NCBI GenBank assembly: GCA_951406725.2 | Contig: OX597818.1 | Location: 37,324,001-37,388,000 of the forward strand | Length of the DNA stretch: 64,000 nt | Direction of reading: 5' to 3' | Origin: Octopus vulgaris | Taxonomy: Eukaryota | Shown: positions 14,827 through 48,572 of the stretch, piece after piece | How positions within the stretch are numbered: position 1 is the stretch's first letter | Layout: each line of letters begins with the position of its first letter | Translations under genes and position numbers: made by a program | Notes under the pieces: generated by a model | Told to the model about the DNA's origin: nothing | Seen by the model: only the letters and a program-made list of their open reading frames with translations | Database searches by the model: none

Positions 14827-15755
14827 TTGGGTCATCCCATAAATAATGCAGTTTTTTCAATTGCATGAAAAATTGGAGGGGGACGGGATAAACTACCTGC
14901 ATCAACTTGCTATAAAAGCAGGTAGTAATTTTACCTTGTCCTTATCCTTATTTACCTTGTCCTTATTCTTAGTGCAAGTTTTGAAGAGTGCAATTCGATT
15001 TTAAGTTATTTTTTCAGTTATAATGAAAGTGACAAAGGAGCATATTCAGCATATTTTGCTTTATGAGTTCAATAAAGGCAACAGCACAACAGAAAGTGCA
15101 AAGAATATTAATGCAGTATATGGGGTTTGGACAATAAGCATGAGCCAATATCAATGGTGGTTCCAGAAATTCCAAGCCAGAAACTACAGCCTAGAAGATG
15201 AGCCTCATCCTGCAAGACCTGTAGTGCTCGACAAAGATGTCCTGCAAACCTTGGTGGAGCAAAATCCCATTGTAACTGTTGAGGAACTAGCAGAGAATCT
15301 TGTATTTGGTCATTCAACCAGTCATTCCGGTCAGCACTAGAAGAAAAACAACAATCTTTGGTTTCAAGACAAAAGGTGTTCTTCCACCTGGTTAATGCTC
15401 AACCACATACAGCGAAGATGACATTCCAAAGGCTGGAGCAGTTTGAATGGGAAACGATGCCCCACCCACCATATTCACCAGACATTGCTCCATCTGATTA
15501 TCATTTATTCCACAGTCTTCAAAATCATTTGGATGGAAAAAATATAAGTTCTGTAGATGAGATCAGAACAGTTAGAGGAATATTTTTCATCACAGAGTGA
15601 ATTTTGGAAGAGGGGCCTTACAAGTCCACCAGCTAGATGGAAGAGCATTGTAGAAAATGAAGGAGAGTATATTTTAAATTAAAAAAGAACTATATCTTAA
15701 TTTTGGAAAATAAAAAAAGTATTAAAAAAACCACATTATTTATGGGATGATCCAA
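14827..15755 (+). mobile_element. Internally deleted mariner (DD34D) transposon with transposase pseudogene
   Basis: TA|TTGGGTCATCCCATAAATAATG ... CATTATTTATGGGATGATCCAA|TA. ORF 15023-15340 is the HTH N-terminus (ILLYEFNKG...WFQKF...LEDEP); ORF 15358-15600 has HPPYSPDIAPSDYHLF. Confidence 0.95.
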
Positions 15756-16168
15756 TACTTTGGTGGTTAATTTTACTATTACCATGTATGGTAGTATTTC
15801 TTTGCCAAACACAAACCACACTAGCTTCATAATAACAATTCTTACTTTAGTAGCCAAATCATTTTGAAACATTCTGAGAAAGTTTTTCAAAATATCTCCA
15901 CCACAACCATTTAACACAAGACTTTTCTTCCTATTCTGTACAAAAGTAATCCTTTGTAATGATAAAATAATGTTGTCAGCTGGTATTAATCTCAGGAAAT
16001 TTAATAATAATGCTTACTACACTTCTTTTATTTGTTTCTGCAGTGAGGAGCCCATAGTTTACAGCAGTGGTTCCCAACCTGTGGTCTGCTGACCCCTGGT
16101 GGCCCACAGAGGTAGTACTGGGGGTCTGTGAACTAAATTCAAAATTTCATATATATATATATATATAT

Positions 16169-16474
16169 AAACAATTGCAGCATGAAAGGTGTTTATAAGC
16201 CATTTAAGAAACACATAATAACCGTTAGATCCACTTCAACATTTAAATTTAATTTGTCAAAATATTTTCGTCGCTTTGAGATTGCGACCTGTTCACTGAC
16301 AAAACTACGTGCTGCATCTCTTATTTTGATAAATTAAATTCAAATGTTGAAGTGAATCTAACAGTTTTTGTGTGTTTCTTAAATGGCTTATAAACACCTT
16401 CCACGCTGCAATTGTTTTCGTTCCAGCACATGATCTCAGATCAAGTTACTCGCTATGCAAGTACATCTCCGTAA
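16169..16474 (-). mobile_element. Fold-back element in (TA)n, probable Penelope-like terminal relic
   Basis: About 96-bp inverted arms 16169-16264 / 16322-16417, one-sided extension to about 16474, (TA)n on both sides, hammerhead-like motif inside. Confidence 0.65.
16253..16303 (-). ncRNA. Minimal type I hammerhead-ribozyme-like motif, G3-C8 variant
   Basis: Minus strand reads UUUGUCA-GUGAACA-G-GUCGC-aaucucaaa-GCGAC-GAA-AAUAUU-U-UGACAAA: 7-bp stem I, core, 5-bp stem II, GAAA, palindromic stem III. Confidence 0.55.
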
Positions 16475-16541
<67 letters not shown>

Positions 16542-16960
16542 AGGATAAACATATTAAAAGGGGGCTGTGAGAAAACTCATTTAAATATAAGGGATCCTTG
16601 GTCGTGAAAAGATTGGAAACCACTTGTTTTCAGTAACCACATTCACCTATTGTCTTTTGGCCTGATATCTTCGACATATCTCCAGATTCTCTACTCTACC
16701 CTAACGTTTCTCTCTCTCTCTTTCTTTCCCATTTACTTTCTTACCCACCCTCCATGAATACATCACATAATCATTAATTTAGTGGGGTACTTTTGAAATA
16801 GTAAAGCCATTAAACTATCACCCTGTGGTCATACAAAATTTTCTTCGACTTACTATACTCCTAAGTCTACGTAGTTGAAGGGCCTTTCATCATATAATCA
16901 AAACATAATTCTCTTTTCTGATCAGCACACTTTATTTTTGAATATATCAAATAATAATTT

Positions 16961-17711: not shown

Positions 17712-18125
17712 AAAGGCAGTGGATTGACAGTATTGTTAGAGAATTAGAAAAATGCTTTGTGTCATTTGGTCCTGCACTTTGCATTCTCACTTTGCGCAGA
17801 GGCGGTACCATAGCCAATGAGGGTTATCCGAGGCGTGGTTATTGCTAGTTGAAAACTTTGCATTCTCAGTTCAAATCCTGCCAAAATCAACTTTACCTTT
17901 CATTTTTTGAAGGTTGATAAGTATTAATCAAGTAGTGGGGTTGATTGCTCAGTAGAATTTTGTCCGTCTTTACATTCTGAGTTCAAATACCACCAAGGTT
18001 GACTTTGCCTTACATCCTTTCGGGTTTGAGGAAATAAGTGCCAGTTAAGTACTAGGATTTATGTTATCAACTAATCCCCTATCCCTAAATTTCAGGCCGT
18101 GTGCCTCTAGTAGAAAGGATTATTA
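17712..18125 (+). mobile_element. Two adjacent degraded family B SINE copies; the first is interrupted by the U4 retrocopy
   Basis: Repeated GTTCAAAT B-box-like and CTTTCAT/TACATCCTTTCGGG body motifs. Confidence 0.65.
17789..17859 (+). pseudogene. 3'-truncated U4 snRNA retrocopy
   Basis: CTTTGCGCAGAGGCGGTACCATAGCCAATGAGGGTTATCCGAGGCGTGGTTATTGCTAGTTGAAAACTTT matches the first ~70 nt of metazoan U4; flanked by direct repeat ACTTTGCATTCTCA (17776-17789, 17855-17868). Confidence 0.9.
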
Positions 18126-20294: not shown

Positions 20295-22430
20295 ATCATC
20301 ATCATCATTTGACATCCACTTTCCGTACTGGCATGGGCTGGATGGTTTGACTGAGGACTGGCAAGCCAGGAGGCTGTACCAGGCTCCAGTCTGATCTGGC
20401 ATGGTTTCTACAGCTGGATGCCCTTCCTAATGCCAACCACTCTGAGAGTATAGTGGGTGCTTTTACGTGCCACTGGCACAGAGGCCAGTCAGGCAGCACT
20501 GGCATCAGCCACAATTACAATTTAATTTGATTCAATAGGTCTTCTCAAGCACAGCATATTGCCTGACGATTGAAGGGTACTTTTAAACAGGCCAGTTATG
20601 CAACACCAGCATTGGTCGCAGCTATGATCTCACTTGACAGGTCTTCTCAATCACAGCATATCTCCAAAGGTCTCAGTTGCTTGTCATTGCCTCTGTGAGG
20701 CCCAACATTCAAAGGTTGTGCTTCACCACCTAATCCCATGTCTTCCTGGGTCTACCTTCCCACAGGTTCCTTCCACTGTTAAGATGTGATACTTCTTTAC
20801 ACAGCTGTCCTCATCCATACGCAACACATGACCATACCAGTGCAGTCATTTCTCTTGCACACCACATCTGATGTTTCTTATGTCCAACTTTTCTGAAAGT
20901 GCTTACACTCTATCATGTATGCACACTGACATTACACATCTAGTGGAGTATACTGGCTTCATTTCTTTCAAGCCTACGCATGTCCTCAGGAGTCACAGCC
21001 CATGTTTCACTACCATGTAGCATGGCTGTTCACACACATGCATCATACAGTCTACCTTTCACTGTGAGTGAGAGGCCCTTTGTTACCAGCAGAGGTAGGA
21101 GCTCTCTGAACCTTGCCCAAGCTATTCTTATTCTAGCAGCTATGCTCTCAGAGCATCCACTCTCGCTACAGACTTGGTCACCTAAGTAACGGAAGCTATC
21201 AACTAATTCTGGCATGTGATGGAGTCTGTTTTCTGTACATCTTCAGTGTTTATTGCCCCTGTGCATCTGCCACACATGCAAAAGCTGTTTTCCTAGTTAA
21301 CCTTCCTTTGATATAGCTGCACCTCTTATGTGTCCATAGCTTACACTAGGTACATCTTAAAGGAGTTTCTACCTACGCCTTTTCTACAGGGCCATCTACC
21401 TGAAGGGGTTTGTGATTTTTCTGCCTTCCTACTTATTAAGATTTTGGTTTTTGCTAGATTGACTCTTAGGCCCTTCAATTCTGGACCTTGTTTCCACATC
21501 TGAAACTTCTTCTCTAGTTCTGGTAGTGACTCAGCTATTAGAGCAGGGTCATCAGCATAGAGGAGCTCCCAGGGGCAGCCTGTCTTGAATTCCTCTGTTA
21601 TTGCCTGGAGGACTATGATGAATATGAAGAAGCTAAAGACTGATTCTTGGTGAACCCCTACTTCTACCCCGAATTCTTCATTATTCTTGTTGCCAATCCT
21701 CACCTTACTGACAGACTCTCTTTCTCCTGTTCATTCCTTTCATTTAGCAACCTTTCATAGTGGTGTCTACAAGTCTTTCTTTGCAGCATCATTAAATGCA
21801 AGTGAGCCATCATCCATGCGGATATATTTCTCTCCTATGACATCACAATTCTCTCTCACACACTGTTTTGCAATATGAAACACTTCGAGTCTCTGGTCCT
21901 CACAATCCAGAACATTGGCAAATTTTTTTTATCTGCTTCCCCTCTGGCTAAGTAAACCTGTCTCCTAGCTTCCCTTCTGACCATCTGATACATTTCCCTA
22001 CTACCACCACACTTCCAGTCCTTCCATGCTCGTTTCTTTTTCCTAATGGCCCTGTCAACTACATTGTTCCACAACCATGTTACCTTAGGTCAAGAGGGAA
22101 CTTTGCACCAGCCATAGATCTGGTCAGTAGCCCTCAACAGGTTATCCCGTAGGAACTTTCAGTTGTCCTCCACACTATGTGTTGCTCTATCCTCTTCTTT
22201 TTCATCAAAAGCTTCAAGTAATACGTCTCTAAATATCTGTCAATTCAGAGGATCCTTTAACTTGCAAACCCTTCTTTTCCATACTGATCATCTTCTGGGC
22301 AGCCATTTAACCCTGATCCTGAAGTTGCTAACTACTAACCTATGTTGTGGGGTGCATTCTTCACCTGGGAAAGTTTTGGTATTTATAAGTAGCCATCTTT
22401 CCTGTTTATTTGAAATGGCTCACAGGAAAG
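20295..22430 (-). mobile_element. RTE-type LINE, 5'-truncated, RT pseudogene with 3' UTR and (GAT)n tail
   Basis: Minus-strand ORFs with VGVHQESVFS...PWELLYADD...GLRVNLAKTK and VDSFRYLG...ARIRIAWARFRELLPLL...RLYDACV; frameshifts and stops; (CAT)n at 20295. Confidence 0.92.
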
Positions 22431-32857: not shown

Positions 32858-33223
<366 letters not shown>

Positions 33224-34256
33224 TAGATTATTGTTTTGGGGAGAGTTTTTTCATAAGCAGATAGTCTCATTTATTTAATTTTTTTTTTTATTTTTTCATT
33301 TGAAACGTGTAGTTTCCACTATTCGGTTTGAATTTTATGTTTCTGCTGCATTTCAGTTCATATGACCTTCTTTCACTTATCTACACATACTTTCTTTCTC
33401 TCTCTCTTTCTATCCCCCTTCTCTCTGTATATGTGAATAATATATATATAATTACATTGAATACTTCCAGGCTAATAAAGTCATTCATATAACAGTCAAG
33501 AAATTAATAATTCTTTAGCTAAGTTTAGCTACAGTAATTCATATAATTTCTCTAATATTATGTGTGCAACATTTTTTCCTCCACTTGCCTCATTAAAAAC
33601 TTGATTGGGGCAAATTCAATAACATTGCACAACCATCAGAAGTTAGTTAAAATAATATAGCTTTTTTTTTTTTTTGTATAAATATTAGATCTTAATTGTA
33701 TCTTATTTCAACTCAGACTGCAATAGTAATTAACTATTTTTATTTGCTTTGGTATCATGTACAAAGCCACAAAGTAGATTATTATTAACACCTTATAGAA
33801 CTAGTTGTTATAGTAATATTCTTCTTCTCTGCTCCTTTTTAGTTTTTTTTTTCACTCTCACCTTCACCACTCTTTCATTACTCCTCCTTCCTTCCATCTC
33901 TACTTATTTCTCTCCATTCAAGAAGTTATTCTCTCTCTCTCTCTGTCTATTTTCAATAGATTCAGTAGATTATAATTTATAACAATAACTTCTAGCTAGA
34001 AATAAAATCGTCGTTTTAAGTCCTGATCAAGCTGGGATTTGGGTTTCTTTTTCTCCAGTATCCACTACATTACTGCTATTTATTCTATTAACCTTCAAAA
34101 AGGCTTTTCTAAAAGACAGAGTTTAATTCATGTCTTCGAAGTTCTAATTTTTCTCTGTGCCACTTGTTATAATGGTGAAAATATTTCACATTTAGAAAGA
34201 CATTAATCTGCAAAGTGTCTCTTAGAAAAAATGCTACCTTGTTTGTCATCTTCTTC

Positions 34257-34666
34257 ATTGTTTTATTATCCACTCTTCCGTGCTTGCATGGGTCAATCAG
34301 AGTTTATTGAAGCAGGTTTTCTATGGCCAGATATCATTGCTATCCCTAATCCCTACCTGTTTCCAAACAAGGTGATATTTCCCCATGGCCATACATGTTT
34401 TCATAGAGAATTGGAAATGAATAACATTCGTTTACAACAATCACATGATGTCAAGTCAAGGAGACAAACATTCTCACCCTCACACATTCGTGTATGTGTG
34501 TGAAAGAGACAGGCTTCTTTCTGTTTCCGTCTAAGAAATCCACTAACAAGACATTTGTCAGCCCAAGGCTATAGAAGAAGGTACTTGCTCAAGGTGCTAT
34601 GCAGTAGTACTGAACCCAAAACTCTGTGGTTAGGAAGCAAATTTATTAACTACACAGCCATACCTG
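34257..34666 (-). mobile_element. SINE family A head with RTE-type tail
   Basis: Reverse complement of the 8588-type arrangement. Confidence 0.7.
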
Positions 34667-34890
34667 CATGTCTGCTATATAGTGCTATGTACATTTGAGT
34701 CAATGAACATAATTTTTGTGCGACTGTAGGAAGTGATATTGAATAACAATAGCTGTGAGTTGAATTGTTGTTGTTGAAAACCGTTGTTCTTCTTTGTCCA
34801 GGCTGCAACATAGAGTTAGCAGATCAACTACTGGGAAGTAACACATATTCAACTGATGAGATATAGTTTAGGTTTGGAGGTCTTTTTGTT

Positions 34891-35516
34891 AGTAATCAAA
34901 GTGTAAAATTTGACCAAACGTAGCATAGAAAATTCTTTCAGATTGGGCCAATGATTCCTTGTGACTTTGGGCAGGTTCATATTTTTATCCAAGTAGAAAA
35001 AGGGTAAAAGACTGTGTCTATTCTGATGGAATCTTAAAATCAGGATGGTAAATGACTAAGTAGCCCATGAATTATATACACCATCATTGTTTTTATGTCT
35101 CCTTTTATCCATGCTTGCATGTGTTGAACAAGACTTCTTAAAGCGATGTTCTATGGCCAGAAGCTGCTTCTGAGGCCAACCCTTGCTTGTTTTCAAGTAA
35201 GGTGCTTTATTCCACTGGTCTTTGCATGTCAAACTGCCAAGTGGGACACTTTCTTATGAGGGACATAAACAACACCACCACTTCCCCCCGAGCAGTGTTT
35301 ATGCAAAGACATCAGGAGACAAATAGATGTACACACACATACACAAACATGCAACAAGCTTCCTTGCAGTTTCCATTATCCAAATTTTCACTTACAAACC
35401 ATTAGTCAATCTAAGGCTATAATAAAAGGCACCTGCTCAAAGTCACAAGGAATCATTGGCCCAATCTGAAAGAATTTTTTGTGCTACGTTTGGTCAAATT
35501 TTACACTTTGATTACT
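34891..35516. repeat. 86-bp inverted duplication (34891-34976 / 35431-35516)
   Basis: Arms differ at about 3 positions; spacer about 454 bp. Confidence 0.9.
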
Positions 35517-37658
35517 TTTATATTCGTCACATCTCATTTGAAGGGGTCATGCCATTGTAAAGTTTAAACTTTGAACACGAAGACCCAGCAATTAAGATGT
35601 TAGAATACTGGAAGCGTATTTGTTTTATTTAACTTCAAAACATTTGTATTAGCGTAATCTATTTGATTGAGTGACAAACAAAGGGAAAACAGAACATAGC
35701 GATAGGAGAGATATGTTAATATAAAAAAATTGATTAATGATTATGTGCAGAAAATGGTTTTGTAGCAGTGTGTTGCTACATGCTGTTTGATGCTGGCCAG
35801 CATTGTTTGATCACCGAACGCAGCTATGATCTATATCTTCATAACTATATTAGTTGTCTGTGTCTAGTAATAAGGTTTTCTTTGTAATGTAGATGAAAAA
35901 GATGATTCATTTTCCAAGATTGATAAATGTACACTACCATATATCATCTGAGAAATTACATGAAATCATAACAAAAAAAAAAAAAAGAAAATTCTGTAGA
36001 ATTTGTCTTAAAGTGAATATTATTTAATAAGTAGGGTCTAGTGTGAGAGGATCGCCTCTATTTCCACTAACATTGATATCTGAACTGATTAAATCTTTCT
36101 TCACAACAGGTCTATGTTATTGTAAGAACATATGTTTAGCTCATTATTAAAGATTATCTTCCAGTATCTTCTTTCAGTTGCATGTTTATTACCTTTTCTC
36201 TTACTCTTATCTCATGACAAGAATGCTATCAATAACACATTAAGGAAAAGGAAATATACGCATTCGCATCAGATAAAACCTTTTCACTCCACTGGATACC
36301 ATTTTCTTTTGTTTTATCTTTTCTCTAATAGTTAATGTATTTCTAGCATTTATTTTGCCTGCTGCATGAATTTATGCACACTCGTGATATATTTTGGTTG
36401 TATACAAACAGGGTGGGTAACAGCAGTGGAAGTTTATAACTATATGTATATCATAAGTGTAGTCTTTTTTATGTGATTCTTTTTGATAAAATGAAAGTGA
36501 GATGTTTATACAAATAATTCTTGTCTTAAAACAAAATAAACAGGAATAAGTGATAATCCAATCATATTTTACAAACTAGCTAACTTTAAAGATAACCTCT
36601 TCAATTGCTTCACATTAAAATTTTAGATATTTTTTTCTTCTTCTTCTTAAAAATAATCCCCAATTAATATTAAAATAACTTTAACTAGCAAGTCAAGATA
36701 AAAATAAATTTAAAATTTGGAAAATAAACTATTTATTTTACTTATTAGAACATTTAGCTGTTATATATTTAAGATTTTCTTAATTACTCCAGCACCAAGC
36801 TGTAATTATGAATTGAATGTGTGTTCCAACATATCCAACATTCAACTCTTAATCATAATTTATAGAGAGCATTTTGCCACTGATTTACTTTTACAAATAA
36901 ATTATCAATAGATTCTAATTCTTTCTCAATGCCAAACAGACTGTGCTACTCATTAGTGTGTGTTTTTATCTGTTTACTTTGAAATTCTTCTCTTTACAAT
37001 GTTTGCTTTGTGTGTTTTTGTTTTTTTGTTGATTTGTTTTCTTTAAATATCTTGCTGCCAAATCTGCTTCTACTTATTACATGATTGCATAGCAGAAATA
37101 CAATGTCTTTTTTTTTTTTAATTGTATCATGTAATAGTATTGGAAGTGTTTAGACAACATTTGGTTTATTAAAATAGTTTTTGTCTGAGGCCTAATTGAA
37201 ACTTTTTAGTATAAACTCTTAAACAATGTGCTCTCATTTGTCTACTCAATTCTCAAAATTCCAATCAAGTATGTCCTCCCATGTCATTTTCATTGGCTTT
37301 ATTGATGATTTTGTTTCTTGATTTCAAATCAATATAAATAATTCAGCTTTGGCATAAAAGCAATTAAAATAGCAAAAGAAAAAAAAGATTCATTGCTATC
37401 TTGACCAACTTTAGATACTCTCCTTTCAACAGAAACGTGCAACAATGCACATAAGAGCCATAAATCTAAATCAATGCTTAGGAATTAGCTCCAATGATTC
37501 TGTTATATACTCAAAAGAAGCTACATATTAATCTGAAAGTTGTGTATTAAATGAAATTGTTTAAAAATATAAAATGTATTATGTTGTGCACCTTCAAAAT
37601 ATATTTTGCCAAAAAATACTTATGTTTGGCACTGATAAAAAAAAGAATTACTTGCTAA

Positions 37659-38788
37659 CCCTTTAACACTAATTCCATTGAGATCACTACTGAGTTGTAG
37701 AGATGGCAATAAATAAAGTATTAAACAATTTTAGTAGAAATAATAATTTGCTGCTTTAAAGCTTAATATGGTGTGTATTAACATCCGAAAAAGGACTGTA
37801 CCAGGTCTTTGAGTGTGCTAAAATAAATTTTAATAACATAAAGGATTTCATTAAACTGAGTGACAGTATACTGCCAGTCTTATGTTCTGGAAAAGATTCT
37901 AGCTTTATTGCCAATTTGAAAGTGGAAAGAGTAGCCTTGTAGAACTTGTTTTCATCTTTGCAAGTTAGGCAGTTGAGTGTCCTGGAACTAAATATCCCAG
38001 GACCTTCCTTGCTTTCCATGATATGAAAGGCAAAAGCAAATTGCTGCTGTGCCTCAACAACCGAAATGCAACTGACTGCCTTCCAATTTTTTCAGCATGG
38101 TCCACTGAAAGAGAAAGGATCCGTCCACGAGGTTTTGTTCCACATAACGGTTTGTTTCGTCGATGATATATGTCCCAAAGATCGAATCCCTCTGAAGAAA
38201 ATCTGGAAAAATCTTACAGGTTTTTGCCATCTCTTCATTCTCTAATATTTCCCTCTTTCTCTCTTTCCATTTAATGTGCTGCAAAGAAACAACACCAAAA
38301 GATAGCTCCCGACTAACTATGAGAATGCATGCTTCTCACCTATTGGGCAGAAAAGTGGGTTATTATCTAGCTGTATATGGCCAGGGTCACTTTCTGGTTT
38401 CTACAATGGTTTGACTTTTTGTTGGTAGATATGTAGCCATACATTCAATCCATCTACTCTTCTGGCTTGAGGATGGCTGACAATCGCAATGATCCAGAGA
38501 GGATTTATCTCTTAATAATTTGTCAGCTGATCAGATCATTGATTGAACACTATGGAAAGAGGGACATAAATTTCTTGGCATTCATGTTAATGTTGTTTGA
38601 CTTGATTACCACTCACATTACTTCAACTCAATGTATTCATTGTCAGTGGTGGCTTCTTTGATGCATTTTCTTCCAATTCTCTCACTAATTCACCTCTAGT
38701 ACAACTCTTGTACACTCTTGACTTTCATTCCCATCCCACTGCCAAGCTTTTTGCATGCAATCTGCATGCTTCTTGCCATTAAAAGAAC

Positions 38789-38790
<2 letters not shown>
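37659..38790. mobile_element. piggyBac transposase relic, apparently rearranged
   Basis: CTAA|CCCTTTAAC end; minus-strand IIDETNRYVEQ resembles the piggyBac IVxETNRYAxQ motif; plus-strand Cys-rich remnants (CIHCQ; HCQAFCMQSACF). Confidence 0.45.
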
Positions 38791-38822
<32 letters not shown>

Positions 38823-40085
38823 TTTTTTTTGTACCTGTTTTATTCTCAGTATCATAAAAGAATATTGCAAAGCTTCAATTAATATTGTGAAAGATTAATA
38901 AAACTTAAAGATTCGCCTTAATTACCCATTGAACTGATTTTTATACAACCTATGTGTTATTGGTATTTGATGGTTTTGTTCTTAAATATAATTAATGTAA
39001 GCCACTGCTAGAGGAATATCTTCATTTACTGAATAATATACAAACACTGTCAGCAATGTGTCGTAATCTGTTGGCAAATATAGCTGGGTACTATTAGAAT
39101 AATGTCTTCAATGATAGGGAAAATGGCCTCAGACTAGTTTCTAATTTACCTTAAATTAATTATGAAAAGTTAATTTAAAATATTTTACTTAAGCCTGCTT
39201 CAGACCAAAATTGACAGAACTAATAAAGACAGTTATCAAACCAACTCATCTAATCTTCAGAAAATGATAACCAAGTTTAATTATAATTAGATTGCTAGCA
39301 TTGATAGTAATGGAAGTGCTGGTATGAAGTACCGCCAAATTTAGTAAAATACATTTTCGGTGGAAAGTCAATGTTAAGTTATGTATTGCTCAAAAAGGAG
39401 TTTCTTCAAATGCTTTACATACCACATGTGACTAATTTTATCCCTAGTTGATATTAATTGGAGATTATTTGGAATATAGAATCTTGAAAAATGATGACAT
39501 TAAATTGGTTCAGTCTTGCCTTGATTCTTTAGCTGTTATTTTCAGTTTGTGTTCGAGTGTGGAAATTAATGCAAAGTTGAGGAATTGTTTGATCTTGGAT
39601 TTTTCTTTGTGAAATAGAACTTGAGTAGTTTGCTTTCTTAGTTATTATTAACTCAGTCCATACAATCAAGTCATTTATATTGAAATTGTTACTTATGGAT
39701 GTGTATTTAACAGAAATGGTTTGCATGGAATCTTTTAGAATACTAATAAAAGAACCTTTACATTATATTTATAATGTGAGTGGGAAATTTATAAAAGAGA
39801 GTCTGATTCATATTTTCTTCATTCATATATCTTACATTTGAGAATCGCTACCATTTGTAGACAGATTTTTTTAGAAATATAGATTTTGTAACGTGTTCCT
39901 TTTTTAAAAATAAGTTTCTTAGCCTCTTGAATAATAACATTACTCAGGTGAGAAGTCTTACTTATAATACTGAAACAATATTACTTTGGAAATTAACATA
40001 ACCTTTATGATTTATGTAAGCAGTAGTTGAACCAATTGTGTGTATATATGATACTATGATATATATATATATATATATATATATA

Positions 40086-40523
40086 CGTTTAAATATTTGT
40101 TGTGCCAGATTTTTTATGTGAAGTCGTGTGTTGAAACAGATATTGTTATATTTCGGAATGGTCATATTGCCAGTTTAGCCAATAAAAACACACGCACTAT
40201 ATATTTGGTGTTATTTTGCTTCAGTGATATTTATTTTTTACATTAATCTTAATCTTATTTCAGCCAGAGTTCTTTCGTCACACTCCTGTGACCGCATCAA
40301 AATGGCTGACGGTTAGTAAGGAGAGACACAAACAAATAAGAAAGAAGAAAACAAAGGACCACTGATGCAGTCACAGGAGTGTGACGAAAGAACTCTGGCC
40401 GAAATAAGATTAAGATTAATGTAAAAAAATAAATATCACTGAAGCAAAATAACACCAAATATATAGTGCGTGTGTTTTTATTGGCTAAACTGGCAATATG
40501 ACCATTCCGAAATATAACAATAT
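40086..40523 (+). mobile_element. Second fold-back element in (TA)n, probable Penelope-like terminal relic
   Basis: About 160-bp near-perfect inverted arms 40140-40299 / 40363-40523, about 63-nt spacer, one-sided extension 40086-40139, flanking (TA)n. Confidence 0.7.
40356..40400 (+). ncRNA. Minimal type I hammerhead-ribozyme-like motif
   Basis: GGACCA-CUGAUG-CA-GUCACA-ggag-UGUGAC-GAA-AGaaCU-C-UGGCC; predicted cleavage after C40395. Confidence 0.5.
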
Positions 40524-40541
40524 ATATATATATATATATAT

Positions 40542-40986
40542 CATAGTATCAACCAGGTCTCAGATGCTGTTATACACTGCTGAACACAATGCACTTCTAA
40601 TTCTGTCTTGATTGCATCATTCTTTTCCATCTTGACCCAAATTGCTAAACTAAATCATTTTCCCATCATTGTAGAAGCCTTCCAAGTGACTTTTTCCAAT
40701 CTCTTGGATACCGCTCAGCTACTACATGGGTCCATCTGTTGTCTTTGAACTTTGCTACCTGTCTGACCCAGTGAATTTTTGTATTCTACAATCACATTGT
40801 TCTCTCTGCCTCAGTCTCCAATTATCTCATTTTCAATATGTTCTCAGAATAATACACATGTCAGACTCTTTAATAGTACTGCTCTACCTGTGTTCTTATA
40901 CACAAGTGAGACGTGGGCTACTCTGAAGAGGATAGATCAACAATTGGCTACAACACAAAGAGCCATAGAAAGATCCATGCTAGGAA
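40542..40986 (-). mobile_element. RTE LINE 3' end with inverted 5' segment
   Basis: Plus strand 40851-40986 encodes HVRLFNSTALPVFLYTSETW...QRAIERSMLG; minus strand from about 40850 encodes EHIENEII ... WVRQVAKFKDNRWTHVVAERYPRDWKKSLGR. Confidence 0.8.
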
Positions 40987-41024
40987 TATATATATATATA
41001 TATATATATATTCACACACATATA

Positions 41025-41444
41025 CAGGTCATCGTCAACTTATGACCGATCGACTTTGCAATGATTGGCGTGCCAGCTCCTGGCATCAATAATAAATAGT
41101 CCAGTTGAAATCTAATGGGTTTACTTTCTTGAAATTAACCTGTTTACAGATGATGTCAGCTAACAATGCATCTCCTAGGTTTGGTTATCAATCGCCACTG
41201 TGTTGGATGACTATCCTGTCACAGAGACATCGAGGCAACCTTGTATTCATCAGACGACAGCTTGAGACTCCGAAATTTTTGACTAACACCAGTATGATAG
41301 TATCATACAGAATGCTGTGTGTGACTTTTACCTGAGAATGTACCTCCAGAATGTAAAAACATAAAACAAAGCTATGTAGGCCTATAGGTCGACTTACGAC
41401 CATTCAGTCAGAACCAGTTGTAGTCGTAAGTCAATGTTGACCTG
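41025..41444. mobile_element. Tigger/pogo-like MITE
   Basis: TA|CAGGTCATCGTCAACTTATGAC ... GTCGTAAGTCAATGTTGACCTG|TA. Confidence 0.8.
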
Positions 41445-42749
41445 TATATATATAAATATATATATATATATGTATGTATACACACACACATGTACACACA
41501 GGTAAGCACATAAGTGCAAAACAAGATGGAAAAGATAGTACTCGAATACCAAAGGTAGAGTAATATGCTTTTTGTTAACGCTGCAAAATTATCGTAGTTA
41601 TGATAGAAATATATGTGTGTATGTGTATATATAATTATAATTGTAGGGCACTAAATATTGTTGTTTAAAATCTATACTAAAGGTTCCCTTACCAAGATAT
41701 TTTTAAAGCTGTTTCTGATTTGACTTTATAATCAACATTTTATTATATTTCTTATATCACAATTCAGTTTTAAATATATGAGATATATTGTATTCATAAT
41801 TTAATGCTAATGTTCATACAGCTTGAAGAAAAATTGTAACCATCGTTTAGAGAAACATAACCAGCCATATGTGAGATGGTGGTTACTGCTAGCTAAAAGA
41901 GAGATTTATTGCAATTAAAAAAAGTATAACACAAGAAACTATCTTGTGTGTTGTTTTTATTTTGGGTTGGTGGATGGATAGCTTCTACTGTTGCTTTTAT
42001 TTTTCTAGAAATTCTTGTGTTTTGGAAAAGGAAATCAAATCGGATACAATTGAGAATTGTAAAAGTGGAATTGTTTTCAGTAGATATGCCCTTAGCATAT
42101 GTAATGACTTTCCTTGTTGCATTATTTGTCTCCTTAATCTAGCTAACCACAAAATAATAAATCCACATTTAAGTGATTACATGAAGCCATAAAAAGCAAA
42201 GAATCTCTAATTGGAAAGGTTATCAAAGTTGTGTGTGCCTCTGTACATGTCAGAGAATAATTTACAAAATTTACATTAGATCTTTTATTTTATCTAAATT
42301 ATTATCCCTATAATGTAAGATGAGTAATCTTTGTTTTTTTACTTGTTTCAGTCATTAGACTGCAACCATACAGGGGCATTGCCTTAAAGAATCTTTAGTA
42401 GAATGAATCAACCCTCATACTTATTACTGAAGCATTTTGAATTATCTAATGTTGTTTTTTTTTTTTAATCTGACTGAAATAACAACATAACATCACATTT
42501 TCATCAAATTTTACTCTTTGTATTTTGGAAGGGATTCTTTTTAACTCTGAAAAGGTGTTTTTTTTTTTTCTTTCTTTCCTTTCTTAATTTGTTAACTTGA
42601 AAATGATATTAGAATTGGAATTAAAATCTTGATCTACCTCTGATAGTATTTATGAAACAAAGCTTGCCATCAAGAACTAATGATATTACATAAATTAATT
42701 TGTAAACCACAATATTTTTTTTTAATCACTAATAGATACAGTAGTTTAA

Positions 42750-42958
42750 CCCTTTAGTGTTCAGATTATTCTATCAAACATAATGCTTATTGATTCCCAT
42801 TGATTTGAATTAATCATGCATTATCTCATATCTTCAAGATCTTGATGGTGTAATTACTTAATGTAGAATAACATTGTAGGGTAGGTATGAGAGCCTGGAT
42901 CTGGTCAGTTTGAACATAAAACAGATTAACTATTTTGGCCGGTTTAAATACTAAAGGG
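42750..42958. mobile_element. piggyBac-type MITE family 1
   Basis: TTAA|CCCTTTAGTGTT ... AATACTAAAGGG|TTAA. Confidence 0.85.
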
Positions 42959-44624
42959 TTAAGCATAATGTATCAATGTTGTTGGTTCCAAATATGTCAG
43001 GTTTGAAATTACATCAGCCATTCTGTGAAAGTCTTGTAATTCATTACATGATTTCTTTCAATTTGGACAACTACTTAGAATTCCATACCAATCTCTCTTC
43101 CAGTCAACAGATGACTATACATCTACAACAAAGGATTAAATCATTGGCATATTTGTTACAGAATTTTGAAGTTTTTTCTTCTTTTTTGTTACCCTGCTGC
43201 ATACATTTAAAATGGTTCCTTTGATTCAGAGATTGTCAAATAGTTACACACATGTACTTGCTCTTTTCTTGCATAATTTGTGCTTATAGGTTCAGTATGA
43301 TATAATATAAATTACTTGACTGTTTGACTTCTTATTGATGTTTCATAGTTTTTCATTTTTCTCTTTGTCTAAGCTTATTATATTACAACCTGTTTTAGTA
43401 TCACTCACTTCCAAGAAATATTCCTATGTTATAGGATATCAGCAATTTGCTATTAGTGTTTCCCTCAAGTAGTAGGTAATGTCCTATAGAAAGGGGCTTT
43501 TCTTTGTGTATGTCATGCTTTTATAGCTATAAATACTTTGTCTGTGAATTATATTTCTATTTTCTAGTTTCTCTCTTACATATGTGGGATATATTTCTAT
43601 GATATCAGTCTTTGTGGAAATATTTCTTGTGTTCATTGTAGCCTAGAGTGTCATGTAATAGGGAAGGGTATAGTTCTTCTGAAATTCCCTTGAATAAACC
43701 AGATTAATTAATTTGCATGGAAAAAAAAACTAACATTACAAATTACTACTGCTTCTTTGTTACTGAATTACATAAACCTGCTTAATTCTTTATCATCCCC
43801 CACTTTACAATTTACCTGGGCAGCTGTATAACAACCATTCATCATAACTTCTCATAAATTATTGAGCTGCTAACAGCTCTTACTCTGGACAGGAAATGAG
43901 TTATTATTTCATCAGAATTTGTCTCTTGGCCATTTCTTTGTGTAATTAATGGCTGTATTGTTTGATTAGAAACGTCTCACAGTTCTTGTAAATATTCTGC
44001 TTATTTTCTGTTCCCTTATAGCTCCACCATCGTCATCGGTGTCAGTATCCCGGCGGGACAAATCCTTCATCCAACTATCCAGGACAAGTTAACATTCAGG
44101 TTAGGCTGATTTCTGGTGTATTTCTTGATCCATGCTACTAATAACAACTAATAGCAAACATCTTACTTCTCTTCTTGTTAGTGTACCTGCAAGGCTGCGC
44201 ACACTTTTGGGCATGTACATATAGCTGCCTGCGCACATACGTGCCCTCTTTGTGAAGATTTATGTATACATAATTTACATAAAATCATTTATTAGTTCCT
44301 AAAGGAAGTCTTATCAGTAAAAGAGTCTGTTTCTTAATGGATGTCCCTCTCAGCAGTTTTCAGATAACGACTGCCTTTCCACTGTAACATCAGTTGTATC
44401 AACTTTGGGCTTCTTTCATTTCAAGCCAGCTTTACTCATTTAGCAACAAGCCGAGAAAGAGTATAATATCACTGTAGAGAATGATAGAAATCTAAATAAA
44501 TAACACTCCATTACTATGGTAGCTGTGTAGAGGTTAGGTAATATATAGAGTGAGGGAATATATATATGTGAATACAAAAGTTTTTGGCACCCTTCTGTAT
44601 TGTTATTGACAGCTATAATTATTT

Positions 44625-44848
44625 CTTTATTACCCACAGGGGGCTGAACATAGAGGGGACAAGCAGACAGACAAAGGGATTAAGTCGATTACATCGACCC
44701 CAGTGCGTAACTGGTACTTATTTAATCGATCCCGAAAGGATGAAAGGCAAAGTCGACCTTAGCGGAATTTGAACTCAGGACGTAGCGGCAGACGAAATAC
44801 CGCTAAGCATTTCGCCCAGAGTGCTAACGTTTCTGCCAGCTCGCCACC
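44625..44848 (-). mobile_element. tRNA-headed SINE, family B (young, CpG intact)
   Basis: Reverse complement of the family B head and body; its 3' part differs from the 16961 copy. Confidence 0.85.
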
Positions 44849-45894
44849 CTACGGCAGCTATAATGTAGCTATTAATTGTACAATCAAGTGAGGTTTTCTG
44901 TCTTTAAAAGGAAGATAACTCCTTAGAACTTCTATCATGAAGTACTAAAATAGAAACAAATAATAACTGAGCATAAAGAAAATGTATTTTCATTATGATT
45001 TTGTAAAATTTCTCTTTGCCTTAAAAATAAGCTTGATATGAGTATTGCAGTTGCAATTATATGATCACTATGTGTTAAAGCAAATAAGCCTTGTGTTAAC
45101 GTAGAAGAAAGTATATTATAATGTAGATGTAAAAACAAGAAGAGAGATCCATTACACAAAGAATATTGCTGAAATGGCTTAACTGTTTGCTTAGATGATA
45201 AGTGCTTATATATATTTTCCAGGAAAGATGAGAATTAACAAGCAATTTTATGATACAATTATCAACATCTTTCTCATGAGACAAAGCGAAAGAACTTAAT
45301 CTACAAATGCTAGTGAAAACCTGGAGGCAAATAACGAAGATACATTATGGCAGATTCTTTTACAGGAAATGAGAAGAAAATTTTCAGGATTAAATAATAG
45401 ATGCATAAAAATAATCAGTAGAATTAGAGAAAAATTGTGATAGTTTTCATTAGCAGGATTTAACTCAGTAAAAATAAAAAGCGTGAGGTATGTTGGAATA
45501 TCATGAAGGTAAAAAAAAAACCTTAATGTTTAGATAACAGGCTTTGTCTTAGGTATCAGATATTTTGCCTCACAGCATGTGAATATAACTTCTTTTTTTG
45601 TTTTGATATATAAGTGGCTCAAAGGTAGTCGAGAGTGACAGAAGCAATAGTGTATTAAACTATGTCTTTCCAGATTTATTTCATTTCACTTACTTTCTGG
45701 TTTTCAACCCAGCTAGGATCAACTTTGTCCTTCTTCTCACTGATGTTGATTCCTTCTATTTCAATAAAAAGTGTGTTACTGATATAGATAAACAAACATT
45801 GATATTCATAAGGTAGAAACCATATGTAAGAGATCAAAGAATATAGTGGGGTAAAGATAGTTACTGTGATGTTTGTCTTTCTCCTTAAGTATAT

Positions 45895-46230
45895 CTTTTA
45901 TCTTTTACTTGTTTCAGTCATTAGACTACAGCCATGTTGTAGAGATTTTTTGTCAAATGAACTGACCCCAGTACTTTTCCTTTTTTAAGCCTGGTACTTA
46001 TTCTATCAGTCTCTTTTGCTGAGCTGCTTAGTTATTAGGACATAAACAAACAAAGACACACACATAGATAGATAGATAGATAGATAGATAGACAACAGGT
46101 TTCTTTCAGTTTCCATCTACCAAATCCATTCACAAAGGCTTTGGTCAGCCCAAATCTATAGTTGAAGACACTTGCCCAAGGTGCCATGCAGAGGAACTGA
46201 ACCCAGAACCATGTGGTTGTGAAACAAGTT
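45895..46230 (-). mobile_element. SINE family A
   Basis: TTTTACTTGTTTCAGTCATTAGACT ... AGACACTTGCCCAAGGTGCC...GAACCATGTGGTTG. Confidence 0.8.
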
Positions 46231-47256
46231 TAAAATAAATTACATGAAGCATGTAGCTAGTATGAAATGTAGTTATAGTGTTAGGGGCAGCAATTTTCAT
46301 TTTAATAAATATATCTATTGTTCACAAGTGTTAACTTTAGTTGATCCCTTGTTTTACCTATCTGCTTTTTTTTTTTTTTGCAAAATTGTAATTAATAGGT
46401 TATCACTATAAAAAAAAAGTTATTTGTATAGAATAAATATTTTAAATTTCTTTCATAACTGGTTACACTGAACTGACTTCTCAATGTTACATTTTAAAGT
46501 ATCTGTATTGTGTAACTACTAACTACACTAGTACTCAAACTGGGACTAATGGACTAATACAGCAACATTAGTCCCAATCTGTTGGTTAAAGAATATAACA
46601 TTGAGGATTTATGCAAAATTGCTTTTCCATTCTGACACTCATTATAGGTCTCAAAATTCTTTTTTTTGCAAACTAGGGTTACCTGCCTGTAAATGCTATT
46701 TTAGTGGATTATGTTCAATCAAAATTTGTATTTGTGGAATAAAGAAGGGGAAAAAGAGTAACATCTGTTTCCAAGTGTATTTGTGGTATTTCTTCTTTCG
46801 GTGTTATTTCTTTATATCAGATTTTTTTGAGAATTTTCTTTACTTTGTTGGTTTGAATTCTTACAGCAAATATTAGGTTACTCATGACAAATATTAAAAC
46901 AACCATTTGCATTTACATCATAAACCATATAAATTGTTTTGATGGGCAGCTACTCCCTACAGTAAACCCCACCCGTCCACCTGTCTTTTCTCTTCATATA
47001 GGGTGTTTAAACATTTGAATTAGTAGATTCTCTATCATTTATAAAGTGTAACAAGTTTCTATTTGTGTGTCATTGTAACTTTTGCATCTATTTTCATCAG
47101 TTTTCTCTTGCATCTATTTTCATTGTTTTCATTTATTACTGACAAGAATACTTTGTCGATCCTCATTTGTATCAATTAAAATTTTCTATTACCTCATGGA
47201 TGCTTATTTGCCCTCATTGTATTAATACTTTTTGTGAATATATGTATAGAAAACGT

Positions 47257-47291
<35 letters not shown>

Positions 47292-47834
47292 CTACTAATT
47301 CTTTTGTGTATGCCATTCAATCTATGCCACATGTTTAAATCAATCAGAAAATTCTCTCCAAACATTACTACTTTAGTATAGTCTAGATTATCATTATGAG
47401 CTTTTTAATGGAAAGAAATTATAACATTCAAGAAATATGTTTAGTGCATGTTAAAAGTTAATTTTTCCAGATTTTTTTTTCCCCATTTATAATTATAATT
47501 ATAGTATTTTTGCTGCTAGTGTTATCTAGCCTAAGCAAATAGCTTATGATTACAATGCATGTATATGTGAAACTTAGTATCACGCAAAATGAAAACCATA
47601 TTGATACTAAGAATTTTTAATAATCCTGCAAGTTCACTACTAAACTTTTTATACTTTCACTAATAATGTAATTTTTATGGTTGTTACAAAGTCCATTGCA
47701 TCAAATTTTCATTCCATTTGTGTATTCATTGTTGAATTTTGCTGATAACTTGTAATATTGTCTTCGATATTAGGTGTTTATTTTAGAAGTAATGTTGACC
47801 AAAAATAATAATTTGTCAGTAATGAATAGTGAGA

Positions 47835-48155
47835 CTATTGGTGGTGTCTGTTTGGGGTGACCCCCTTTGGTCATGAATGACCATGAGATTGCACCTACAA
47901 AGTTACCCTCTGAGGCACAAGTTCAGGCAAGGTTATTTATGGAAGACCAGCAGTCACCTATGTATACTAGCCTCTCCTCTCTATGCTACCAATGTTATCC
48001 AAGGGAAAGGCAAAAGCCAATACAGCTTGGCATCAGTGATGTTGCAACTCATTTCTACAGCTGAGTGAACTGGAGCAATGTGAAGTAAAGTGTCTTGCTC
48101 AAGAACACAACATGCAGCCCAGTCCGAGAATTGAACTCACAACCTCACGATCGTA
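47835..48155 (-). mobile_element. tRNA-derived SINE (further family)
   Basis: GAATTGAACTCACAACCTC (reverse B box), AAGTGTCTTGCTCAAGAACACAAC body, GGTCATGAATGACCATG hairpin tail. Confidence 0.65.
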
Positions 48156-48572
48156 CCTTCATTGGTGTCAGTTTACTTATATGTTTAATGCAGTAATGGA
48201 CATAACTATTTTTTTATGTTCCACTTTTTTTCAATTAGTAGATGAGTTCGCAGTCACATAGTGACTGATTCACATTTCGTTTGGTTTCAATATATATTCA
48301 AGACTTATAAATAAGCATGTAAATATTGTATGGTGTCCTTATTGGTCAAGAAAATAAGAATTAAGACTTCCAGTCAGTGCTGTTTTCATCATTTAATGGA
48401 TTTGAATATCAGTGAATCCTTATCACAAGAATATTAATATTTAATATATCATCAGCGGGTAAAACTAATGGGGTGGAAGAATCAAAACTTTATATTTGCT
48501 GCTGTTGCTATTGTTGTAAATTCATTCACTCTTTTCTTTTTTCTTTTTCTTTCAGTGAATTTTCCCTTTTAG

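What the first reader, a model, noticed from the sequence alone, without database searches (positions are those of the whole stretch)
40086..40523. Second, unrelated 160-bp-arm palindrome carrying a CUGAUG...GAAA hammerhead-like motif
Seen: near-perfect inverted arms 40140-40299 / 40363-40523 between (TA)n tracts. At the inner end of the right arm is CCA-CUGAUG-CA-GUCACA(GGAG)UGUGAC-GAAA-GAAC-UC-UGG (40356-40400), and the left arm holds most of the motif in antisense. As in the 16253 motif, 8 nt rather than 7 separate stems I and II. The complete motif is in the sense of the DYRK1 pre-mRNA. Inference: either a potential intronic self-cleavage site, or more likely one masked by the long hairpin, which would itself be a strong ADAR substrate in a cephalopod.
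Basis: partly seen in the sequence, partly recalled or inferred. Interest (0 to 1): 0.7.

Follow-up and report, generated by a model that had tools for sequence, protein, structure and literature searches.

The report
Fold-back Penelope retroelement stump, altered hammerhead
The palindrome is real and belongs to a very abundant repeat family; it is most likely a dead, two-piece stump of a Penelope-like jumping gene in a kinase-gene intron, and its hammerhead-type motif has an altered core and is predicted to be buried in a long hairpin, so it likely does not cut the host RNA.

Summary
Confirmed: arms 40140-40299 and 40363-40523 (158 of 161 columns identical) lie between (TA)n tracts in a DYRK1-type intron, with a hammerhead-type motif at 40359-40398 (0 of 300 shuffles gave one). 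Contigs from four public runs show thousands of related sequences. Other copies have the same head-to-head layout, with the inverted partner cut off at varying points. A one-sided 54-nt tail carries a 27-codon frame. This is the published insertion pattern of Penelope-like elements (pLTR, inverted 5'-truncated copy, tail), not a fixed-TIR MITE. No RT/GIY-YIG ORF could be linked, because no genome is held. The unusual part is C instead of A at core position 9 (A in all 90 published rows seen), apparently family-wide. Folding the ribozyme inside the hairpin costs 35-44 kcal/mol, so cleavage of the pre-mRNA is unlikely. ADAR editing is plausible but untested. Verdict: new member of a known kind, low interest, with one testable oddity.

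The parts
40298..40523 (+). Forward unit: pLTR-like end module of the element (5' leader, hammerhead motif, about 125 nt of 3' sequence), without tail
   Evidence: loose ends behind 40299 equal the reverse complement of the spacer up to 40362 (X2 62, X18 22, X9 6 contigs), so the + strand spacer is the natural 5' context. Loose ends before 40298 show further upstream family sequence.
40359..40398 (+). Minimal type I hammerhead-type motif: 3-bp stem I, core C3-U4-G5-A6-U7-G8-C9 plus one extra nucleotide, 6-bp stem II with G10.1-C11.1, G12-A13-A14, 2-bp helix III with AA loop, U16.1-C17
   Evidence: compared with PMC4209133 Fig S3
40395..40395 (+). H17; cleavage would occur 3' of it. C/U polymorphic in the family (other letter 4-21% of depth at the mirror position 40267)
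   Evidence: (table 3)
40140..40299 (-). Inverted, 5'-truncated second copy, beginning at U4 of the hammerhead core (C3 and the native 5' strand of stem I are missing)
40086..40139 (-). 54-nt one-sided 3' extension (PLE 'tail')
   Evidence: Present on the left copy only. Other copies stop at 40140 and go into (TA)n (X2 42, X18 23 contigs); depth falls steadily along the tail.
40085..40165 (-). Open frame of 27 codons from an ATG at 40165 through the tail; likely the N-terminus of the parent element's ORF (inferred). The right arm holds only its first 8 codons (ATG at 40498)
   Evidence: open by chance in 16% of shuffles. One unnamed relative, P0003, 62% identical over 29 residues, E 2.7e-4. 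Break-point cluster at 40165.
40298..40299 (.). Head-to-head junction with 2-nt microhomology
   Evidence: joints of other copies also land at 40297-40301; the upstream family sequence ends next to the same CA dinucleotide
40059..40085 (.). Left (TA)n tract (target site)
40520..40541 (.). Right (TA)n tract (target site)
40049..40059 (-). 11-nt inverted duplicate of the right flank 40541-40551, embedded in TA repeats; origin unexplained
   Evidence: (I4: 40049-40080 vs 40520-40551, 32 of 32 complementary)
33183..48572 (+). Host intron of the DYRK1-type kinase gene (GT..AG, phase 1)
   Evidence: inferred from the sequence, no transcript seen
16169..16474 (-). Second, sequence-unrelated element with the same layout mirrored; its hammerhead (16253-16303, minus strand) has G3/C8 covariation, A9, an extra G and a palindromic helix III

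Best explanation
This is a copy of an abundant repeat family, most likely a dead-on-arrival insertion of a Penelope-like retrotransposon built from two short reverse transcripts of the element's end module joined head to head in a (TA)n tract, and its hammerhead motif is predicted not to cut the host pre-mRNA. Inferred steps: the element's endonuclease nicks the AT-rich target; both 3' ends prime reverse transcription at internal sites of the element RNA, one at the pLTR edge (right arm, no tail) and one 54 nt further on (left arm, with tail); the left cDNA stops inside the hammerhead core and is joined to the right one through 2 nt of microhomology; each arm later took one CpG-type change. 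Shown here: the layout, the family's abundance, variable truncation in other copies and the computed masking. In the pre-mRNA the left arm is made first and would capture the motif as it emerges, leaving a 160-bp duplex that is removed with the intron and would be an ADAR substrate.
For:: 9397, 7722, 3053 and 387 contigs laid in 4 of 4 runs (three organism labels). 9 of the 15 joints shown (54 in all) link different left-arm positions (40183-40253) to 40297-40301, so the inverted partner's length varies between copies. Tail-less copies end at 40140 in (TA)n. Published layout: direct pLTR of about 218 bp, shorter adjacent inverted pLTR, optional 31-bp tail, and pLTR plus tail encoding the first 12-22 aa of the ORF (PMC3846280); the same in PMC8557442 with (TA)n bias. 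A purified PLE protein cuts and extends both strands, starts at two internal sites that bracket the tail, and needs no hammerhead cleavage (PMC11167929). Minimal-hammerhead traits match, and dual motifs on opposite strands 100-700 bp apart were already noted (PMC4209133). Forcing the hammerhead fold costs +43.7 kcal/mol in the full hairpin and +34.9 in a transcript ending at 40400, but only +0.1 in the isolated motif.
Against: No RT or GIY-YIG ORF was linked to the family. There is no genome; protein searches with the 27-codon frame found no long protein; five short peptide words are absent from the PLE supplement of PMC8557442. The frame is open by chance in 16% of shuffles. The tail (54 nt) is longer than the published 30-40 nt. 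Position 9 is not A and loop 3 is not palindromic. No direct TSD can be seen in (TA)n, and the 11-nt inverted flank duplicate is unexplained. The 5' ends of forward units cluster near 40298, which fits a short non-autonomous unit as well as truncation of a full element.
Confidence: 0.85

Rival explanations
1. A short non-autonomous, PLE-mobilised unit of about 245 nt (retrozyme- or SINE-like) with its own fixed 5' end, moved in trans, rather than truncated copies of a full-length element. This is a variant of the best explanation, not its opposite.
For: Forward-unit starts of other copies lie 0-15 nt upstream of 40298 in the joints shown (tables 5 and 5c). Loose ends before 40298 have median lengths of 16-32 nt. 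No long protein starts with the frame.
Against: Contigs break in repeats, and table 5c lists at most 40 letters, so short loose ends are expected. A transcription start inside the pLTR of an autonomous element would give the same clustering. Tail-side loose ends run on for a median of 57-88 nt. Retrozymes are head-to-tail tandems (part 1 of 5 of 10.64898/2026.07.22.740005); this is head to head.
Confidence: 0.3
2. A MITE or foldback DNA transposon whose terminal inverted repeats happen to contain a hammerhead-like string.
For: Near-perfect 160-bp arms, small size, high copy number, TA target.
Against: The ends are asymmetric (tail on one side), the inverted arm's inner end varies between copies, the motif is absent from 300 of 300 shuffles, and an unrelated family in the window has the same layout and motif.
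Confidence: 0.05
3. An active or regulated intronic ribozyme: ADAR editing or a protein opens the duplex, the motif folds (possibly as a dimer with another transcribed copy) and cuts the DYRK1 pre-mRNA after C40395.
For: The motif is in the pre-mRNA sense. In isolation the hammerhead fold is within 0.1 kcal/mol of the MFE. This copy has an A at 40369 that could stand in for A9 with C bulged. A PLE hammerhead was shown to be protein-assisted.
Against: Masking by 35-44 kcal/mol. A9 normally forms a sheared pair with the general base G12 (PMC2553840; PMC11300833). A single minimal motif showed no cleavage. The family majority has G at that extra position. A copy only 2% diverged between its arms gives no sign of host selection.
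Confidence: 0.05

Closest known systems
Insertion units of endonuclease-positive Penelope-like elements: pLTR + adjacent inverted 5'-truncated copy + tail (PMC3846280; PMC8557442 Fig 2; PMC11167929)
   Same: Head-to-head layout, forward unit of about 225 bp, shorter inverted copy, tail on one end only, first codons of a frame in the pLTR and continued in the tail, microhomology at the junction, (TA)n target.
   Different: No body or ORF in this copy; tail of 54 nt rather than 30-40; an 11-nt inverted duplicate of flank; clade not assigned. By eye it is not the published Naiad_Obim or Naiad_Ovul 3' end, and its motif differs from that of Hydra-1_oBim.
Minimal type I hammerheads (min-HHR) of metazoan PLEs (Cervera and de la Pena 2014, PMC4209133)
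   Same: Short helix I, 6-bp helix II with G10.1-C11.1, extra nucleotide between 9 and 10.1, vestigial helix III, U16.1-H17.
   Different: Position 9 is C (A in 56 of 56 rows of Fig S3 and 34 of 34 rows of PMC8557442 File S2). The extra nucleotide is G in the family majority (G in 1 of 56 rows). Loop 3 is AA, not palindromic.
Palindromic repeats as ADAR hyper-editing substrates (Xenopus Harbinger; PMC5625713)
   Same: A single insertion folds into a long, nearly perfect duplex with a short loop inside a transcript.
   Different: Here the hairpin is likely made by retrotransposition, not by TIRs, and editing was not measured. That paper left octopus out of its repeat-class analysis.

Membership tests
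EN+ Penelope-like element | Single ORF with PLE reverse transcriptase and GIY-YIG endonuclease (in the parent element) | tested here: inconclusive
   No genome. A 27-codon frame gave one short unnamed relative and one unrelated repeat protein; searches for longer proteins found none, which the tool itself calls weak evidence.
EN+ Penelope-like element | Inverted 5'-truncated copy adjacent to the pLTR, of variable length | tested here: met
   This locus and 9 of 15 joints shown
EN+ Penelope-like element | Optional tail at one end only | tested here: met
   40086-40139 on the left copy only; tail-less copies end at 40140. Length 54 nt against 30-40 nt published.
EN+ Penelope-like element | Hammerhead motif within the pLTR | tested here: met
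   variant core, see the rows below
EN+ Penelope-like element | pLTR and tail contain the first codons of the ORF | tested here: inconclusive
   ATG at 40165, open through the tail; chance 16%; 2 of the 4 polymorphic sites listed in the frame are synonymous third positions (read by eye)
EN+ Penelope-like element | Partial tandem pLTR-ORF-pLTR copies elsewhere in the genome | not testable with these tools
EN+ Penelope-like element (microsatellite-targeting clades) | Insertion into (TA)n | tested here: met
   This locus; loose ends before 40140 are (TA)n in X2 (42 contigs) and X18 (23)
Minimal type I hammerhead | C3-U4-G5-A6-N7-G8 and G12-A13-A14-A15.1, U16.1-H17 | tested here: met
Minimal type I hammerhead | A9 | tested here: not met
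   C in both arms; no other letter at 8% or more listed at 40294 in 4 runs
Minimal type I hammerhead | Extra nucleotide before a long helix II with G10.1-C11.1 | tested here: met
   PMC4209133
Minimal type I hammerhead | Palindromic helix III/loop 3 allowing a dimer | tested here: not met
   A15.1-U16.1 and G15.2-C16.2 pair, but the AA loop gives two A-A mismatches in a dimer (self-cofold -2.0 kcal/mol). Non-palindromic loops also occur in PMC8557442 File S2, with longer helices.
Minimal type I hammerhead | Self-cleavage after H17 | not testable with these tools
   Needs an assay or raw RNA reads; all runs laid were contigs
MITE / TIR element | Symmetric fixed ends and uniform internal structure | tested here: not met
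   One-sided tail and variable inner junctions
Non-LTR retrozyme | Head-to-tail tandem units, each with a type I hammerhead | tested here: not met
   No tandem unit at this locus; other loci not seen

The most novel reading that the evidence does not exclude
A very successful Penelope family kept the whole hammerhead scaffold while fixing C at position 9, which can Watson-Crick pair with the general base G12 and so switch catalysis off. The fold would then be a non-catalytic signal for the element's protein, or a protein-unlocked switch. Its stereotyped fold-back insertions, of order ten thousand per genome and shared with other families such as the 16-kb one, would be a main source of the perfect intronic duplexes behind the extreme A-to-I hyper-editing reported for octopus.
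Probability: 0.2. Interest if true: 0.55.

Novelty: new member of a known kind. Interest (0 to 1): 0.25.

Why it matters
As a locus it is ordinary: one of thousands of similar stumps. Two points could matter. First, the role of hammerheads in Penelope-like elements is open (PMC8557442, PMC11167929). An abundant family with a non-canonical position 9, beside a family with G3/C8 covariation in the same window, gives a natural pair for asking whether catalysis or only the fold is selected. Second, such hairpins are easily filed as MITEs or SINEs, and they may supply much of the long duplex RNA that ADAR edits in cephalopods; PMC5625713 could not assign octopus editing to repeat classes.

Tried and rejected
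Whole-genome copy collection: no genome held. Rfam: only U4 at the gathering score in the window; no hammerhead model up to E=10 at either motif, and the miRNA hits there only reflect hairpins. Metagenome scans: an exact 21-nt motif gave 0 hits. A loose C9-core pattern gave 117 loci fetched of about 130; 16 had a stem II of 5 bp or more, 0 of 117 also had a stem I of 3 bp or more, and none resembled the element by blastn, so they were rejected as chance. Protein searches with the tail frame: P0002 is an unrelated repeat protein; the Atlas gave no usable hit; three word-index searches gave nothing new. The 7-bp stem I seen on the minus strand of the left arm was first read as a second complete ribozyme, then rejected: one search shows that its 5' strand is the complement of the forward unit's leader, so the junction makes it, and the core there has 10 nt and lacks C3. 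No RNA holder is listed on record; X9 is only guessed to be RNA and its contigs cannot show editing or cleavage ends. Literature searches found no description of this family or of an A9C core; most subscription papers are not held. Lunse et al. 2016/2017 on about 150,000 short-stem-III variants (number recalled) was not held and may already list such cores. The O. vulgaris repeat paper has no mention of hammerhead or ribozyme in its main text; its supplement was listed but not read, and Repbase/Dfam libraries were not available. The bioRxiv retrozyme preprint's supplements are closed.

Full report
Observation. The two arms lie at 40140-40299 and 40363-40523 and differ at 3 of 161 columns: G/A at 40293/40369 and T/C at 40262/40400, both in CpG context and one on each arm, plus one A in an A-run. 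The region folds at -277.6 kcal/mol, z = -34. The motif at 40359-40398 has stem I (3 bp), an 8-nt junction, stem II (6 bp, G10.1-C11.1), GAAA, a 2-bp helix III and U-C17. A relaxed descriptor finds it and the 16253 motif in the window and nothing in 300 of 300 shuffles; I wrote the descriptor after seeing both motifs. Rfam does not recognise it. Kinase exons run on the + strand, and the element lies in a GT..AG intron at 33183-48572 whose exons join in frame.

The left copy runs 54 nt further (40086-40139) than the right one. Outside the two (TA)n tracts, 11 nt of unique flank are duplicated in inverted orientation (I4). The 16-kb element shares no sequence with this one but has the same plan mirrored: a complete hammerhead on the tail-less copy and a shorter inverted copy with an extension.

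The family. No genome is held, so I laid the contigs of 4 of the 24 listed runs on 40086-40375 at 80% likeness. 9397, 7722, 3053 and 387 contigs were laid, in three organism labels. Summed depth over single-contig depth would suggest of order 10^4 copies, but the tool warns that this is no copy number; the contig counts show thousands of variants. Loose ends behind 40299 are the reverse complement of the spacer, so the + strand spacer is the natural leader of the hammerhead, and the left copy is cut off at U4. Loose ends before 40298 show more leader. Of the 15 joints shown (54 in all), 9 link left-arm positions 40183-40253 to 40297-40301: other copies are also head to head, with inverted partners of different length. 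Many copies end at 40140 in (TA)n, and depth falls along the tail. Within the motif, the only letters listed at 8% or more are C/U at H17 and the mirror of 40400. The joints at 40299/40362 have 6 letters (5 in X9) fitting both sides, which means G at the extra position. Differences close to an alignment end can be missed, so this is likely rather than certain. The family is young enough that few changes are expected anywhere (1 listed site in 37 nt of motif, 8 in the 123 nt beyond), so this is no proof of selection.

The tail. An ATG at 40165 (minus strand) opens 27 codons through the tail. On its own this is weak, at 16% by chance. A search of 1.84 billion proteins gave 2 hits: an unrelated repeat protein and P0003, an unnamed 79-aa product 62% identical over 29 residues, E 2.7e-4, probably a diverged copy. 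75-127 contigs per DNA-type run break at 40165 with heterogeneous loose ends. That may mean relatives with other leaders, a truncation hot spot, or clipping at the common variant at 40166. No long protein was found.

Comparison with print. PMC3846280 (passages) describes a direct pLTR of 218 bp, an overlapping shorter inverted pLTR, an optional 31-bp tail, and the first 12-22 aa of the ORF in pLTR plus tail. PMC8557442 (abstract, passages, section 11, supplement parts 2 and 24 and three term searches) gives the same layout and (TA)n bias, and lists octopus Naiad and Hydra families that do not match this one. PMC11167929 (parts 1-2 of 4) shows both-strand cutting and extension, two internal start sites that bracket the tail, protein-assisted hammerhead cleavage, and insertion that does not need it. 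PMC4209133 (parts 1-2 of 4, supplement parts 1-2 of 3) defines the minimal hammerhead: 54 of 56 rows have the 8-nt junction, all 56 have A9, monomers did not cleave, and opposite-strand pairs 100-700 bp apart were seen. All 34 rows of PMC8557442 File S2 also have A9. A9 pairs in sheared fashion with G12 (passages of PMC2553840 and PMC11300833). The passages seen of PMC3088659 list other core variants but none at position 9; its figures were not seen. PMC9901934 (passages) reports low activity for core mutations apart from the C3/G8 swap. That A9 substitutions cut activity strongly is otherwise recalled. PMC5625713 (passages) reports octopus as exceptional in hyper-editing and in long duplexes, with no repeat-class analysis. 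PMC13282606 (part 1 of 3 and passages) counts 31 recently active Penelope-like families in O. vulgaris. PMC6765202: passages only. The retrozyme preprint: part 1 of 5.

Mechanism. Shown: layout, abundance, variable truncation, computed masking. Inferred: both ends of a cut (TA)n target primed reverse transcription on element RNA at two internal sites, and the cDNAs were joined at a 2-nt microhomology. In the pre-mRNA the left arm precedes the motif. Forcing the hammerhead costs +34.9 kcal/mol once 40400 is transcribed and +43.7 in the full hairpin, against +0.1 in isolation, and stem II has a probability near 1e-16. With C9, a 2-bp helix III and no partner in the same sense, cleavage of the host transcript is unlikely. 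The duplex holds 110 adenosines and would be an ADAR target; this was not tested.

Verdict. A real feature, most likely a new member of a well-described kind. Earlier notes of this scan report the same pattern in shark- and fish-type genomes; they are unchecked AI notes and not support. The remaining oddities are the apparently family-wide C9, the clustered 5' ends and the inverted flank duplicate. Interest 0.25.

Noticed in passing
window 16253-16303 (-): The other family's minimal hammerhead has G3 with C8 (a swapped 3-8 pair), A9, an extra G, a 7-bp stem I and a palindromic helix III. It looks more canonical than the 40-kb motif. The G3/C8 swap is not among the 56 rows of PMC4209133 Fig S3, but is known as a partly active lab mutant.
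   Followed up: partly
window 16064-16628: The 16-kb hairpin sits inside another short element whose ends look like inverted repeats of a hAT-type transposon (label recalled, not tested).
   Followed up: no
window 40049-40059 and 40541-40551: 11-nt inverted duplication of unique flank around the insertion; it could come from fold-back copying at the (TA)n tract before, during or after insertion.
   Followed up: partly
window 40298-40309 and 40396-40402: The forward unit's leader has a 7-nt direct repeat of the sequence just after the cleavage site. Its first 7 nt also equal the family-majority context of the ATG at 40165, a possible aid to template jumps.
   Followed up: no
window 17788-17931 (+): U4 snRNA match (77.5 bits) inside an intron of the kinase gene, followed by a T-rich stretch; gene or retrocopy not decided.
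   Followed up: no
window about 40640-40985 (+): Decayed coding fragment that resembles the C-terminal end of an RTE-type LINE ORF (recalled; no Pfam hit), ending at another (TA)n tract.
   Followed up: partly
window 15005-15600 (+) and 21341-21730 (-): Mariner transposase fragment (HTH_48, E 1e-17) and LINE reverse-transcriptase fragment (RVT_1, E 2.5e-6).
   Followed up: no
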